In this document: positions 3,001-6,000 of the stretch, piece after piece
How the letters are laid out: every line of letters begins with the position of its first letter
Numbering within the stretch: the first letter of the stretch is position 1
Source: a plasmid
Direction: 5' to 3' (one strand)
Sequence record: NZ_CP048903.1
DNA: 39,059 nt
Position numbers: made by a program

Positions 3001-6000
3001 ACAATTTCATTATACTGCATTTTAATTTCTTCCAAATGCCTTTTATGGCGCGGATTCCTCATATCGACCTTACTTGGCAATATACCCAAAAAAGCCAATT
3101 TGCTGTTCACTTTTCTGATATTGCCTATTGTTGCAGCCATCTGTTTAATTCCTTGTAGGCTGTATGTTTCCAACTCGATCGGACATAACACATAATCCCC
3201 GGCCGCCAGTGCAGCCGCCAACGTGTTACCTAAACTGGGCGGAGTATCAATAATACAGACATCGAATTGCCCGCCCGCTTTTAATTTGTCGATGTTTTGC
3301 GTAAAAGACTGAACAGCATTTTGCAAAGTCATATTCTGCACGTTAGCCAAATCGTTTGTCGCCGGGGAAAGAGCCAGTGAAACGTTGCCGGGCATATGTA
3401 AATCCGCATCTTCCATATTTCCAAACAAACGGCCGGAACCGAAAAGACACGTTTTGTCTCGAAGAGAGTAACTCGCATTCCCCTGCGTATCCAAATCAAT
3501 TACTAAAACCCTCAGTCCAACTGTTTCCATATGCCAGGCAAGATGAAGCGACATAGCCGTTTTTCCTACCCCGCCCTTTTGGTTTGCCACCACTAAAATC
3601 TTCATTCCTACACCTCATATTTTATTTCTGAACGCGATAACAAAAGTGAGCCATCCCATTACGATACCGAACGTCAAGATAAATTTGCCGATATAAATCC
3701 ATGAATCAGCCATATTCCAGTGGTACAGCATTTGGCACAAAACATAGAAACTGTACATCCAAGCAAACCATCGGACAGGGAAAAGCAAATAGGCGATAGC
3801 TAACACCATATAAACCACTTCAAACATTTTTTTTCCAGCTTTGGATTTAATTCTGTCCATAGGAGCCTCCGTCCGATATAGTTTGTATTATAGGATAAAT
3901 TATCCTATTTGTCAAGCAATTTTAGCGGCTAAAATTTTATTTACCAAAATTTCTCAATACCCACATACAAGCTCAATAAAACCCAATAGGCATATGTGAT
4001 GGATGATTCCCCACTGATGAATCTCCTGAAAGCTCTACCATTGGTGTCTTTCAACCCTAAATACCTGCTAACTTGTTTTTGAGTCATTCCCGTTGCTAAC
4101 CACAATTCTTTGACCTCATCAGCCGTAGGGACTGCCCATTGCGGAAACCGGTGGAAACATTCTGGACGGATATTCAGGTCTTTTTTTTGTATCAAGTTAT
4201 GCTCTTCAATATTTTGAAGATGCCATTTCTTTGCTTGAAATGCTTGGTAAGGAGTAAGTAATACGGTGGTAGAAATTAAATCGGTCATTTGAAAGTTCTC
4301 GGCAATTTACCCTTGGAGTAAAATGAAAAAGATCTAAATCGCCCGTAGGGCGACAGACGAATTTATGAAATTATCTAAAATCGCCGTAGGCGACAGCAAA
4401 TTGATAAAACCGGCTTTTCGGTCGCGAAATATGGTTATAAATGGTTAGATAATGGTTAGGGCAAAAAAAAGCGGTTTTTTTCAATTAATATTCAGTATGT
4501 TGCAAACATGGCGGCATGTGTAAATCCGCGATTTAGCATGTGTAAATCCGCGATTTAGCATGTGTAAATCCGCAAGGGAATTAGGATATTTTGTCCTAAA
4601 AGCATGTGTAAATCCGTAAATTTTGCTCATATTTTAGGCGATACCGAATGTTATGCACAGGTTATCCACAGTTTTGATTTTTAAAATAGGTTTTTTATAT
4701 TTATTTTGTCTGTTTGTTTTTTAATTTTTATCGCATATCTTGACCTGCATGTTTTGGTATTTTTGTCAAACCGGCCATCGGCATGTGTAAATCCGCAAAT
4801 GGCATGTGTAAGTCCGCAAACAGTGAAAATTTGCTGTTTTTTGGCATGTGTAAATCCGCAAATGGCCTGTTTGGGGCATGTGTAAATCCGTGCTTGTGGA
4901 TAATTTTAACGCTCGACGATAATCTTCCCGGATAATACAAAGGCAGTTTTTACCAACTGCGCCTCGGTGAGTTCGGCACAAATCTTTTTAGCATTTTGAT
5001 TTTGCGTTTTCGCTGGGGAGTTGATTTGGTCGCTGCCGCACATTGCTAAAAATGCAGGAATAGGTATAGGGTTGGGATGTTTGTGGCTAAAGACATAATC
5101 GGTGAGCCGCCTAGCCATTGGAGAAAGTTTTTTGTATTGACTCCAAGGGATGTTGGAAAATGTGTTTCCGGCAAAAAGCACGATTAGTTTTTTATCGATG
5201 CTGACTTTGTAACGTGTCGGTTCGCCTTTGATGTTTTCAATTCCGACATAATTGTCAATAAGGGAAATACCTCCGCTGACGCCGTAGGTATTTCCGTTTT
5301 TGATATAGATCTCTGTCGCTTTCATTCTGCTCAAAGATTCCCGGACACGTTTATAATAGGCTCCGCTGGTATCCCATCCGATGTCCTTAATAAGCTGCCT
5401 GATGTCAAATTCGACGTAATTCCCCAGAGGGAAACGACGGCAGTAATCTACAAGCTGCATCCATATCAGCTCGTCATCCACTGAACGGAGCTCGGTACCT
5501 GTGTAAAGGATCTCTACTTTTTCTGAGATATGGAAAAGTTTTTCACGGGAGAAAGTTTTTCTCGGCACCCGATGATTTCTTGCTGTAAACAAACATGATC
5601 GGGCGAAATCGTTCGGCATCGCTCTATGCTTTGAACCAAAGATAGTATTTCCAAACAAATCCTCTATAATAAGGTTGTCGTCTGTCGGAATGCCTTTTGA
5701 TTTCAAGTATTCTTCCCTTTGGGCTTCATCCCTGCGTTCGGCGACTAAATTCAAATAAGGAAGCACTTCCTGAACATTTTTCATAATTTATCCTAAGTCT
5801 TGTTCGGGGTCGTAGATAAATGAGGGGTCTGATGATTCTTCCCGTCCGGCAGGGGGTTTGAGGTTGCTGTATTCAATACGGCTGGCAATCATCTGGTCTT
5901 TATAGATTTTTTGCCCATCTTTTTCATAGTTGTTATTGCTTATCCTTCCTTCTATCAGGATAAGGGAACCTTTGCCGCAATACCTGACGGCGTTCTTGGC

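What the first reader, a model, noticed from the sequence alone, without database searches (positions are those of the whole stretch)
3941..4288. HTH regulator carrying the TrbA C-terminal motif at its N-terminus
The 115-aa ORF begins TVLLTPYQAFQAKKWH, which matches TVILPRYKAFQVKKWN in the last 30 residues of the TrbA-like protein (11 of 16 identical). In IncP-1alpha, KorA, TrbA and KlcB share a small C-terminal protein-interaction domain used for cooperativity with KorB. Here the shared motif is N-terminal and the HTH (TGMTQKQVSRYLGL) is C-terminal, the reverse of the KorA order. The gene sits where korA would be, upstream of incC-korB, but has its own promoter region. That region contains two 24-bp direct repeats, each with a small palindrome (4332-4396).
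Basis: partly seen in the sequence, partly recalled or inferred. Interest (0 to 1): 0.55.

Follow-up and report, generated by a model that had tools for sequence, protein, structure and literature searches.

The report
KorC repressor carrying KorA-type KorB-docking module
The small gene is the already-named korC repressor of the gonococcal conjugative plasmid, but its first ~30 residues are a genuine copy of the KorA/TrbA partner-binding module. In a plasmid that lacks KorA, this probably lets KorC team up with the partition protein KorB to shut down the plasmid's central control promoter.

Summary
The window is the N. gonorrhoeae IncP-like conjugative plasmid backbone (100% identical to pEP5289 over 1900-6600). 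ORF 3941-4288(-) was already annotated korC in 2010.

Residues ~38-115 are a KorC-family XRE-like HTH, not a reversed KorA. Residues ~4-34 are homologous to the KorA/TrbA/KlcB dimerisation and KorB-interaction module:
- 10 of 16 residues are identical to the plasmid's own TrbA, not 11.
- hhalign gives 96% probability, E 2e-9.
- KorA is the top PDB hit of the family profile.
- F17 aligns with KorA Y84 / TrbA F104, and KorB keeps the partner aromatic (F218 = RK2 F249).

The plasmid has no korA, no KlcB and no OA site.

Directly downstream lies a consensus promoter for kleE-incC-korB. It has an OB site abutting the -35 and a 17-bp TAGG-N9-CCTA palindrome in the spacer, the same geometry as IncP-1 OC. 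This layout recurs in five related plasmids and at a second promoter (23126).

Best reading (inferred): KorC* binds the 17-bp palindrome and co-represses with KorB through its N-terminal module.

The 24-bp repeats (4332-4396) are hairpin-forming elements that travel with oriV. They are not korC operators.

Verdict: new variant of a known kind.

The parts
3941..4288 (-). korC* coding sequence (115 aa): KorC-family repressor with an N-terminal KorA/TrbA-type module
   Evidence: ORF. Annotated korC in pEP5289 (PMC2848598). 100% identical in 21 gonococcal plasmids.
4187..4279 (-). Residues 4-34: module homologous to the KorA/TrbA/KlcB dimerisation and KorB-interaction domain (beta1 + helix). The core motif, residues 8-23, is at 4220-4267; F17 is the equivalent of KorA Y84.
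   Evidence: hhalign 96.3%, E 2e-9, with shuffle controls. Domain HMM E 4e-5. The A1 profile's top PDB hit is KorA 8qa9_C residues 73-104, E 0.045. L10 L11 T12 P13 Y14 Q15 A16 W22 are invariant in 7 homologues. AF2 predicts a helix at 13-30. Between the gonococcal and L006 genes, 9 of the 11 identical motif residues use different codons.
3944..4177 (-). Residues 38-115: KorC-family XRE-like helix-turn-helix DNA-binding domain
   Evidence: tblastn to IncP-1 korC. 212 family members in the representative search, most starting at query position ~33-40. AF2 pLDDT >90. Foldseek top matches are the AcrIF24 HTH, Aca1/Aca10 and C-proteins.
3921..3933 (.). KorB operator OB (TTTAGCGGCTAAA), 5 nt upstream of the -35 of the kleE-incC-korB promoter
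   Evidence: Exact match to the OB consensus; 6 sites in the window against 0.02 expected. Also noted in PMC2848598.
3887..3915 (-). Consensus sigma-70 promoter TTGACA-17-TATAAT (12/12) for kleE-incC-korB
3891..3907 (.). 17-bp palindrome TAGGATAAATTATCCTA in the promoter spacer, running into the -10: predicted KorC* operator (OC-like)
   Evidence: Exact copies at 3891 and 23126; 5 matches at up to 3 mismatches against 0.10 expected. Same position as OC TAGGGCATTTTGCCCTA in pRSB223 klcAp/kleAp. Same layout in Eikenella, L006, L010, L012 and L013. The L012 palindrome is TAGGGCATAATGCCCTA.
1927..3860 (-). Target operon kleE (3615-3860), incC/parA (2850-3605), korB (1927-2844). KorB F218 (codon 2191-2193) is the equivalent of RK2 F249.
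   Evidence: Pfam hits. Alignment to the KorB chain of 8qa8/8qa9. F218 is invariant in 4 KorBs and is Y in L012.
23126..23169 (-). Second OB (23157-23169) plus 17-bp palindrome (23126-23142) plus TTGACA-17-TATAAT promoter, in the genetic-load region
   Evidence: The duplication was noted as 52-bp homology in PMC2848598.
6231..6596 (+). trbA: the only other protein in the window carrying the module (residues 84-121, nt 6480-6593)
   Evidence: Pfam HTH_3 plus a weak KORA C-terminal hit. phmmer against KorA PDB chains, E 0.0016. Domain HMM 1.3e-22.
4332..4396 (-). Two hairpin-forming direct repeats (4332-4356, 4373-4396). They are associated with oriV and are not part of the korC* regulatory unit.
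   Evidence: Fourteen copies in 6 plasmids all form perfect 5-6 bp stems, with 6 different arm sequences. They always follow the iterons and TAACC repeats, including in L008 where korC* lies elsewhere.

Best explanation
ORF 3941-4288(-) encodes the plasmid's KorC-family repressor, here called KorC*.

Shown:
- Its C-terminal ~78 residues are the KorC XRE-like HTH domain.
- Its N-terminal ~30 residues are a transplanted copy of the beta-strand-plus-helix module that forms the C-terminus of KorA and TrbA. In RK2 that module both dimerises those repressors and docks onto KorB (Y84/F104 stacking on KorB F249).

Inferred mechanism:
- A KorC* dimer binds the 17-bp palindrome TAGGATAAWTTATCCTA. The palindrome fills the spacer and overlaps the -10 of the consensus kleE-incC-korB promoter, and of a second promoter at 23126.
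- Through the exposed Y14/F17/W22 face of its N-terminal helix, KorC* captures KorB loaded at the OB site that abuts the -35.
- The result would be a cooperative, KorA-like 'clamp-locking' repression complex in a plasmid lineage that has lost KorA and OA sites.

The 24-bp repeats upstream belong to oriV, not to this circuit.
For: Homology of the two parts:
-.
- Key KorA positions are retained: T75/T8, L78/L11, H81/Y14, Q82/Q15, A83/A16, Y84/F17, K88/K21, W89/W22 (alignment; residue roles from PMC2665229, PMC2680271, PMC13584720).
- The retained Y14, F17 and W22 correspond to KorA's surface-exposed patch, not its buried dimer core (PMC2665229).

Partner side:
- KorB is 52% identical to RK2 KorB. 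The F249-equivalent F218 is invariant and is aromatic Y in L012.

No KorA in the plasmid:
- Only TrbA and KorC* carry the module.
- No OA site is present.
- incC is the short form.
- The control region contains 6 genes, none of them korA (PMC2848598).

Promoter geometry:
- OB to palindrome centre-to-centre is 26-29 bp at 5 promoters and 37 bp at one. The palindrome starts 2 nt after the -35 and ends in the -10, exactly as OC does in the pRSB223 klcAp.
- RK2 OB-OA spacings are 32-36 bp (PMC2665229).

Portability of the module:
- An independent fusion exists with the module C-terminal to a KorC domain: P0027, domain HMM E 2e-15, Pfam KORA E 5.5e-4. It sits next to an OB+OC promoter.

Selection:
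- The motif is invariant down to 47% overall identity, with mostly synonymous codon changes between close homologues.
Against: - No binding data of any kind; both the KorB contact and the operator assignment are inferences.
- The module is short, and single-sequence searches miss it. Pfam KORA gives no hit for the gonococcal protein even at E<=10, and phmmer against the PDB finds only noise.
- The profile-versus-PDB E-value is marginal (0.045).
- The canonical 'VLP' proline is displaced by one position (LLTP).
- The AF2 monomer shows the helix but no beta-strand.
- Attachment at the N-terminus puts the module in a different geometry relative to the DNA than in KorA.
- In more distant relatives (P0008/L012, L008) the aromatic is shifted by one residue.
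- IncP-1 KorC works without such a module, and the module alone could serve only for dimerisation.
Confidence: 0.6

Rival explanations
1. The N-terminal module is only a homodimerisation (or higher-order oligomerisation) device for KorC*. It has no contact with KorB, and KorB and KorC* repress kleEp independently.
For: In KorA the same module is first of all a tight interlocking dimeriser (PMC2665229). KorC-family proteins evidently act as pairs, since several relatives are tandem two-domain chains (P0010, P0012, P0017, P0033). There is no direct evidence for KorB contact.
Against: The residues kept invariant (Y14, F17 aromatic, W22) map to the solvent-exposed KorB-contact patch of KorA, not only to the buried core. 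KorB keeps the partner aromatic. Ordinary 85-aa KorC needs no such module. OB always abuts the palindrome-bearing promoter.
Confidence: 0.22
2. The module mediates hetero-association with TrbA, the only other carrier in the plasmid. This would be KlcB-like cross-talk or anti-repression, linking transfer-gene control to partition-gene control.
For: The KorC* motif is closest to the plasmid's own TrbA: 10/16 identical, against 6/16 by hand count to RK2 KorA or pRSB223 KlcB. KlcB is reported to interact through this domain (Bhattacharyya & Figurski 2001, cited in PMC2680271).
Against: The similarity is at protein level only (3 of 10 shared codons), as expected if both are tuned to one KorB surface. 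No composite TrbA/KorC half-site operators were seen.
Confidence: 0.1
3. The 24-bp repeats at 4332-4396 are the operators or promoter of the gene.
For: They lie 44-108 bp upstream of the ATG in the gonococcal, Eikenella, L006, L010 and L012 plasmids. The first repeat could sit in the spacer of a weak TTGCTG-18-GATAAT promoter (read directly from the sequence).
Against: In L008 three copies follow the iterons and TAACC repeats although korC* is located between trfA and the iterons and no gene lies downstream of them. Arm sequences differ between the copies within one plasmid while complementarity is kept, which argues for structure rather than a single sequence-specific dimer. The candidate promoter hexamers are not conserved. 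KorC-type operators are 17-bp TAGG-N9-CCTA palindromes.
Confidence: 0.06
4. The motif match is a chance resemblance with no shared ancestry or function.
For: The match is only ~16-31 residues long. Pfam's KORA model does not detect it.
Against: hhalign E 2e-9, with shuffled controls far below. The ORF is the only non-TrbA hit among 913 segments. KorA is the top PDB hit of the profile. The motif is strictly conserved across homologues.
Confidence: 0.02

Closest known systems
KorC of IncP-1 plasmids (RK2/R751/pBP136; 85 aa global repressor binding OC)
   Same: Homologous HTH domain (about 37% identity over 90 aa). Same gene position upstream of kle-incC-korB. A predicted operator of the same length, the same TAGG...CCTA ends and the same placement in the -35/-10 spacer.
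   Different: Carries an extra ~35-residue N-terminal segment with the KorA/TrbA module. Its predicted target is the central control (incC-korB) promoter itself, rather than klcA/kleA/kleC. The operator core is AT-rich (GGATAA) rather than GGGCAT in the gonococcal plasmid.
KorA (TrfB) of RK2, PDB 2W7N/8QA9
   Same: Shares the beta1-alpha5 dimerisation and KorB-docking module, including the Y84-equivalent aromatic, Q82, A83, K88 and W89. The predicted role is KorB co-repressor at the central control promoter, with OB ~28 bp from its operator (32-36 bp in RK2).
   Different: The module is N-terminal instead of C-terminal. The DNA-binding domain is unrelated (KorC/XRE-type rather than the KorA four-helix HTH). 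No OA sites are present. The proline of 'VLP' is shifted by one position.
TrbA of RK2 and of this plasmid (HTH_3 + KorA-like CTD)
   Same: Same module (10/16 identity in the core). Both are XRE-superfamily HTH repressors encoded on one plasmid with one KorB.
   Different: Opposite domain order. Different HTH subfamily and different operators. TrbA-KorB interaction is demonstrated experimentally (PMC13584720); the KorC*-KorB interaction is not.
KlcB of IncP-1
   Same: Carries the same module outside the C-terminal position (mid-protein). It is encoded immediately upstream of korC in IncP-1, a conceivable donor for a fusion.
   Different: KlcB has no DNA-binding domain and is ~400 aa. No klcB remnant is detectable here.
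P0027-type KorC-CTD fusion (metagenomic, 112 aa)
   Same: A KorC domain fused to the KorA/TrbA module, next to an OB+OC promoter.
   Different: The module is C-terminal (canonical order) and much closer to the KorA consensus (LPKGYSRVDVVLPDHKAFQVRKW). This is an independent fusion event.

Membership tests
KorC family (IncP-1 KorC repressor) | Sequence homology to the KorC DNA-binding domain | tested here: met
   tblastn gives 36.7% identity over residues 26-115 to the korC region of IncP-1 plasmids, E 1e-11 to 2e-12. The profile search finds 212 relatives.
KorC family (IncP-1 KorC repressor) | Small XRE-like helix-turn-helix fold | tested here: met
   AF2 pLDDT >90 for residues 41-110, five helices. 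Foldseek finds AcrIF24 HTH, Aca1, C.Csp231I and others at probability 0.9-0.99.
KorC family (IncP-1 KorC repressor) | Cognate 17-bp palindromic operator (OC, TAGGGCAxAATGCCCTA type) between -35 and -10 of target promoters | tested here: met
   TAGGATAAWTTATCCTA occurs at 3891 and 23126 in the same register as OC in pRSB223 klcAp. The relative L012 has exactly TAGGGCATAATGCCCTA. Physical binding was not tested.
KorC family (IncP-1 KorC repressor) | Single-domain protein of ~85 aa | tested here: not met
   The protein is 115 aa with a conserved N-terminal extension. Only ~6 of the 150 listed relatives share it.
KorA/TrbA/KlcB dimerisation and KorB-interaction module (C-terminal part of Pfam PF16509 KORA) | Detectable sequence homology to beta1-alpha5 of KorA | tested here: met
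   hhalign 96.3%, E 2e-9. Domain HMM E 4e-5. The A1 profile's top PDB hit is KorA residues 73-104.
KorA/TrbA/KlcB dimerisation and KorB-interaction module (C-terminal part of Pfam PF16509 KORA) | Reaches the Pfam KORA gathering score | tested here: not met
   No KORA hit at E<=10 for any of the 7 KorC* homologues. The TrbA here reaches only 12.3 bits and P0027 20.5 bits, against a cutoff of 26.7.
KorA/TrbA/KlcB dimerisation and KorB-interaction module (C-terminal part of Pfam PF16509 KORA) | Aromatic residue at the KorA Y84 / TrbA F104 position | tested here: met
   F17 aligns with Y84. The position is F or Y in all 7 close homologues. It is shifted by one position in P0008 and the L008 protein.
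KorA/TrbA/KlcB dimerisation and KorB-interaction module (C-terminal part of Pfam PF16509 KORA) | 'V-L-P' signature proline (KorA P79) | tested here: not met
   The sequence reads LLTP; the proline is one position later.
KorA/TrbA/KlcB dimerisation and KorB-interaction module (C-terminal part of Pfam PF16509 KORA) | Beta-strand plus antiparallel helix 'gripper' that interlocks in a dimer | tested here: inconclusive
   The AF2 monomer gives a helix at 13-30 preceded by an extended coil at 1-12. The strand would form only in a dimer, which the tool cannot model.
KorA/TrbA/KlcB dimerisation and KorB-interaction module (C-terminal part of Pfam PF16509 KORA) | Direct binding to KorB (helix alpha10, F249) and cooperative repression | not testable with these tools
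   Only the partner residue could be checked: KorB F218 is conserved.
KorA (TrfB) proper | KorA-type N-terminal HTH and OA operators (GTTTAGCTAAAC) | tested here: not met
   The HTH is KorC-type. There are no OA matches at up to 1 mismatch in the window.

The most novel reading that the evidence does not exclude
KorC* would be a third, structurally distinct class of KorB 'clamp-locking' co-repressor. The ~30-residue KorA/TrbA docking module would be a portable cassette that evolution has grafted onto either end of an unrelated HTH: the N-terminus in the Neisseriaceae plasmids and the C-terminus in P0027. This would let a KorA-less plasmid rebuild KorA-KorB-type cooperative silencing of its own partition operon and of a toxin-antitoxin load operon.
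Probability: 0.5. Interest if true: 0.65.

Novelty: new variant of a known kind. Interest (0 to 1): 0.55.

Why it matters
The 2026 TrbA study states that it is unclear whether KorB has partners beyond KorA and TrbA (PMC13584720, section 9). This protein is a concrete, testable candidate. It carries the docking module on a different DNA-binding scaffold and at the opposite terminus, in a natural KorA-less background, with a simple two-operator consensus promoter.

If confirmed, it would show that the KorB-locking interface is a modular, transferable element of plasmid regulatory networks. It would also explain how the minimal control region of the gonococcal tetM/conjugative plasmids, which are clinically important, keeps incC-korB and a load operon tightly repressed.

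It also corrects the reading of the upstream repeats, which appear to be a conserved, uncharacterised hairpin component of this oriV type.

Tried and rejected
- Single-sequence Pfam and PDB searches of the 115-aa protein found only noise (Homeobox_KN, uS15). Pfam KORA was not detected even at E<=10 for all 7 homologues. Family profiles were needed.
- My first DNA pattern for the repeats was mis-specified and found nothing. It was replaced by a regex search.
- I considered that the motif similarity to TrbA reflects recent intraplasmid gene conversion. Rejected: 29/48 nt identity, and only 3 of 10 identical residues share a codon.
- I considered the repeats as intrinsic terminators, which the scan flags at 4399-4381. 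Rejected because the T-tract is not conserved in the relatives (TTAT, TTCG, TTAC).
- I considered the repeats as korC* operators. Rejected on the L008 arrangement.
- The palindrome-like hits at 5779 and 6607 (3 mismatches) were dismissed. The 6607 hit overlaps the trbA terminator hairpin, and 5779 spans the ssb/trfA junction.
- The 4582 hit (2 mismatches, inside oriV) is kept only as a possible third site. It is not conserved in L006 or Eikenella.
- No convincing promoter for korC* itself was found.
- A linker-fused AF2 'complex' of KorB and KorC* was not attempted. The tool returns no inter-domain contacts and would probably refuse chimeric input.
- The GTDB genome scan found only one further locus, in Eikenella halliae, so the family is rare.
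Full report
**Identity of the window**

Region 1900-6600 is 100% identical to N. gonorrhoeae conjugative plasmids such as pEP5289 (NC_014105). The local gene order on the minus strand is trfA (4906-5784), iterons/oriV, the 115-aa ORF (3941-4288), an 81-aa kleE-like ORF (3615-3860), incC/parA (2850-3605) and korB (1927-2844). ssb and trbA lie to the right. Pachulec & van der Does 2010 (PMC2848598) already list the 348-bp gene as korC (KorC of B. pertussis, 36% over 75 aa) and the next gene as kleE. 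They describe a six-gene control region without korA.

**Checking the observation**

The motif is residues 8-23 of the ORF and matches TrbA-like residues 94-109 at 10/16 identities, not 11. The evidence that this is real homology is as follows.
- Seven full-length homologues, down to 47% identity, keep L10 L11 T12 P13 Y14 Q15 A16 W22 invariant, while the following linker is variable.
- A profile of these proteins searched against all PDB sequences returns KorA (TrfB, 8qa9_C) as the top hit. KorA residues 73-104 align to ORF residues 6-37 (E 0.045).
- hhalign of 11 N-termini against 19 KorA/TrbA/KlcB C-terminal domains gives 96.3% probability, E 2e-9. In 200 column-shuffled controls the highest score was 15.2, against 38.7 observed.
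- An HMM built only from TrbA/KorA/KlcB domains hits just TrbA (1e-22) and this ORF (4e-5) among 913 six-frame segments of the window.
- Between the gonococcal and L006 genes, 9 of the 11 identical motif residues use different codons. The segment is therefore translated and under purifying selection.
- The similarity to the plasmid's own trbA is at protein level only (29/48 nt; 3 of 10 shared codons). It is not a recent gene conversion.

**What the rest of the protein is**

Residues ~26-115 match IncP-1 korC. In pRSB223 the order is klcA-klcB-korC-kleA-kleE-kleF-korA/incC-korB. An exhaustive profile search finds 212 relatives. Almost all begin at query position ~33-40, so ordinary KorC lacks the extension. 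AF2 (56-sequence alignment, mean pLDDT 85.9) predicts an extended N-terminus, a helix at 13-30, a low-confidence linker and a five-helix HTH domain. Foldseek places that domain among XRE-like HTH proteins such as the AcrIF24 HTH, Aca1 and C-proteins. The protein is therefore not a KorA with reversed order. It is a KorC that has acquired the KorA/TrbA module at its N-terminus. I call it KorC*.

**What the module does in its known carriers (literature)**
- In KorA, beta1 (72-78) and alpha5 (80-97) form an interlocking dimer. H81, Y84, I85 and W89 form the exposed conserved patch (PMC2665229).
- Y84 is critical for cooperativity with KorB (PMC2680271).
- KorA Y84 and TrbA F104 stack on KorB F249, lock the KorB sliding clamp and give cooperative repression (PMC13584720).

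In the alignment the KorC* equivalents are T8 (T75), L11 (L78), Y14 (H81), Q15 (Q82), A16 (A83), F17 (Y84), K21 (K88) and W22 (W89). The exposed-patch aromatics are thus kept. The 'VLP' proline is displaced by one residue.

On the partner side, the gonococcal KorB is 52% identical to RK2 KorB. It keeps the F249 equivalent (F218) within a conserved EITRxxVxxLKEFL helix. This residue is invariant in the Eikenella and L006 KorBs and is Y in L012. The RK2 KorB numbering rests on a sequence I recalled; it is consistent with the PDB chain alignment.

**Absence of KorA**

Only two proteins in the window carry the module. No OA operator (GTTTAGCTAAAC, up to 1 mismatch) is present. incC is the short 251-aa form, which leaves no room for an embedded korA.

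**The likely operator and target**

Six OB sites occur in the window. The one at 3921-3933 lies between korC* and kleE. On the minus strand the sequence reads OB, 5 nt, TTGACA, AA, TAGGATAATTTATCC, TATAAT. This is a 12/12 consensus promoter whose 17-nt spacer is filled by a perfect 17-bp palindrome ending in the -10.

An almost identical unit lies at 23126-23169 in the genetic-load region. This is the 52-bp homology noted in PMC2848598.

In IncP-1beta pRSB223, the known KorC-regulated promoters klcAp and kleAp carry TAGGGCATTTTGCCCTA in the same register between -35 and -10. There, an OA sits between OB and the -35.

The same OB/-35/palindrome/-10 unit precedes the kleE-like or parA gene in several relatives:
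- the Eikenella exigua plasmid (TAGGTTATTTTAACCTA)
- E. halliae
- L006 (TAGGATGATTTATCCTA)
- L010 (CAGGATAATTTATCCTA)
- L012 (TAGGGCATAATGCCCTA, the classical OC type)

OB-to-palindrome centre distances are 26-29 bp (37 bp in L010), compared with 32-36 bp for OB-OA in RK2 (PMC2665229). Relative to IncP-1 klcAp, the KorA slot has vanished, and the KorC-type repressor that remains carries KorA's docking module. That KorC* binds the palindrome and contacts KorB is inference from this geometry and homology. Nothing here measures binding.

**An independent fusion**

Scanning all retrieved KorC relatives with the module HMM revealed P0027 (112 aa). It has a KorC domain followed C-terminally by LPKGYSRVDVVLPDHKAFQVRKW (E 2e-15; Pfam KORA E 5.5e-4). 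It is encoded next to an OB + TTGACA + TAGGGCAAAATGCCCTA + TATAAT promoter with an IncP-1-like leader. The module has therefore been joined to KorC domains at least twice, at either end. This supports its reading as a portable interaction cassette.

**The 24-bp repeats (4332-4396)**

The repeats are real. On the minus strand they read CTGTCGCCTACGGCGATTTTAGAT and CTGTCGCCCTACGGGCGATTTAGAT. Homologous copies, 2-3 per plasmid and 14 in all, occur in six plasmids. They are always immediately after the iterons and a set of TAACC repeats spaced at about 11 bp (4433-4458 here).

All 14 copies form perfect 5-6 bp stems with six different arm sequences. Different arms occur within one plasmid.

In L008, korC* lies between trfA and the iterons. 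The three repeats still follow the iterons and TAACC block, with no gene downstream.

They therefore belong to the oriV module, where they probably act through structure, and they are not KorC* operators. Their T-tracts are not conserved, so they are unlikely to be intrinsic terminators. No convincing promoter for korC* was found. Read-through from trfA, or a weak promoter overlapping the degenerate palindrome at 4582-4598, remains possible.

**Distribution**

The N-terminal fusion is rare. It occurs in gonococcal plasmids, two Eikenella plasmids and a handful of metagenomic contigs.

**Novelty**

The gene, its korC name and the OB sites are published. In the searchable literature I found no mention of a KorC carrying the KorA/TrbA domain. 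The 2026 TrbA paper leaves open whether KorB has further partners. I rate the finding a new variant of a known kind, of moderate interest.

Noticed in passing
window 23095-23180: A second, near-identical OB + TTGACA-17-TATAAT + 17-bp palindrome promoter unit faces leftwards into the genetic-load region. Downstream on the minus strand are a 92-aa ORF and a 402-aa ORF (22525-22803 and 21320-22528); I did not run them against any family library. This implies that KorB and KorC* also control a load operon.
   Followed up: partly
P0027; L014:646-1100: A metagenomic KorC-family protein carries the KorA/TrbA module at its C-terminus (canonical order). It lies next to an IncP-1-like OB/OC promoter in which the OA position looks degenerate (GTCTAAAC). 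This is an independent fusion of the same two parts.
   Followed up: partly
window 4332-4396 and 4433-4458; L002, L006, L008, L010, L012: This oriV type has a conserved order: iterons, then three TAACC repeats spaced at about 11 bp, then 2-3 GC-rich hairpin repeats with compensatory stem changes. The function of the hairpins is unknown; priming or another structural origin element are possibilities.
   Followed up: partly
window 4193-4195 (codon 32 of korC*): An in-frame TTG is preceded by GAAGAG with 6-nt spacing. It could start an 84-aa KorC-only product, reminiscent of the long and short forms of IncC and TrfA. The leucine is not conserved in L006 or Eikenella.
   Followed up: no
window 4582-4598: A degenerate copy of the 17-bp palindrome (TAGGATATTTTGTCCTA, 2 mismatches) lies between iteron clusters. 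It overlaps a weak minus-strand promoter-like site (TTTACA-18-TATCCT). It could be a korC* autoregulatory site, but it is not conserved in relatives.
   Followed up: partly
P0010, P0012, P0017, P0033 (KorC-family relatives): Several family members contain two KorC domains in tandem in one chain (single-chain pseudo-dimers). This is consistent with KorC acting as a dimer on palindromic operators.
   Followed up: no
window 6607-6650: A hairpin CCCATATCTG/CAGATATGGG followed by a T10 run lies right after the trbA stop. It is an intrinsic-terminator-like element between trbA and trbB.
   Followed up: no
window 6213-6225: An OB site lies only 5 nt upstream of the trbA ATG, in the divergent ssb-trfA / trbA region. 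No OC-like palindrome is present there. TrbA, which has the same module, is the expected KorB partner at this site.
   Followed up: no
L008:3813-4196: In a more distant low-GC relative, the korC*-like gene directly follows trfA, upstream of the iterons, and its motif is divergent (KVMLNNAEYRLVKFW). No parA/korB lies nearby, which suggests rearrangement of the control region.
   Followed up: partly
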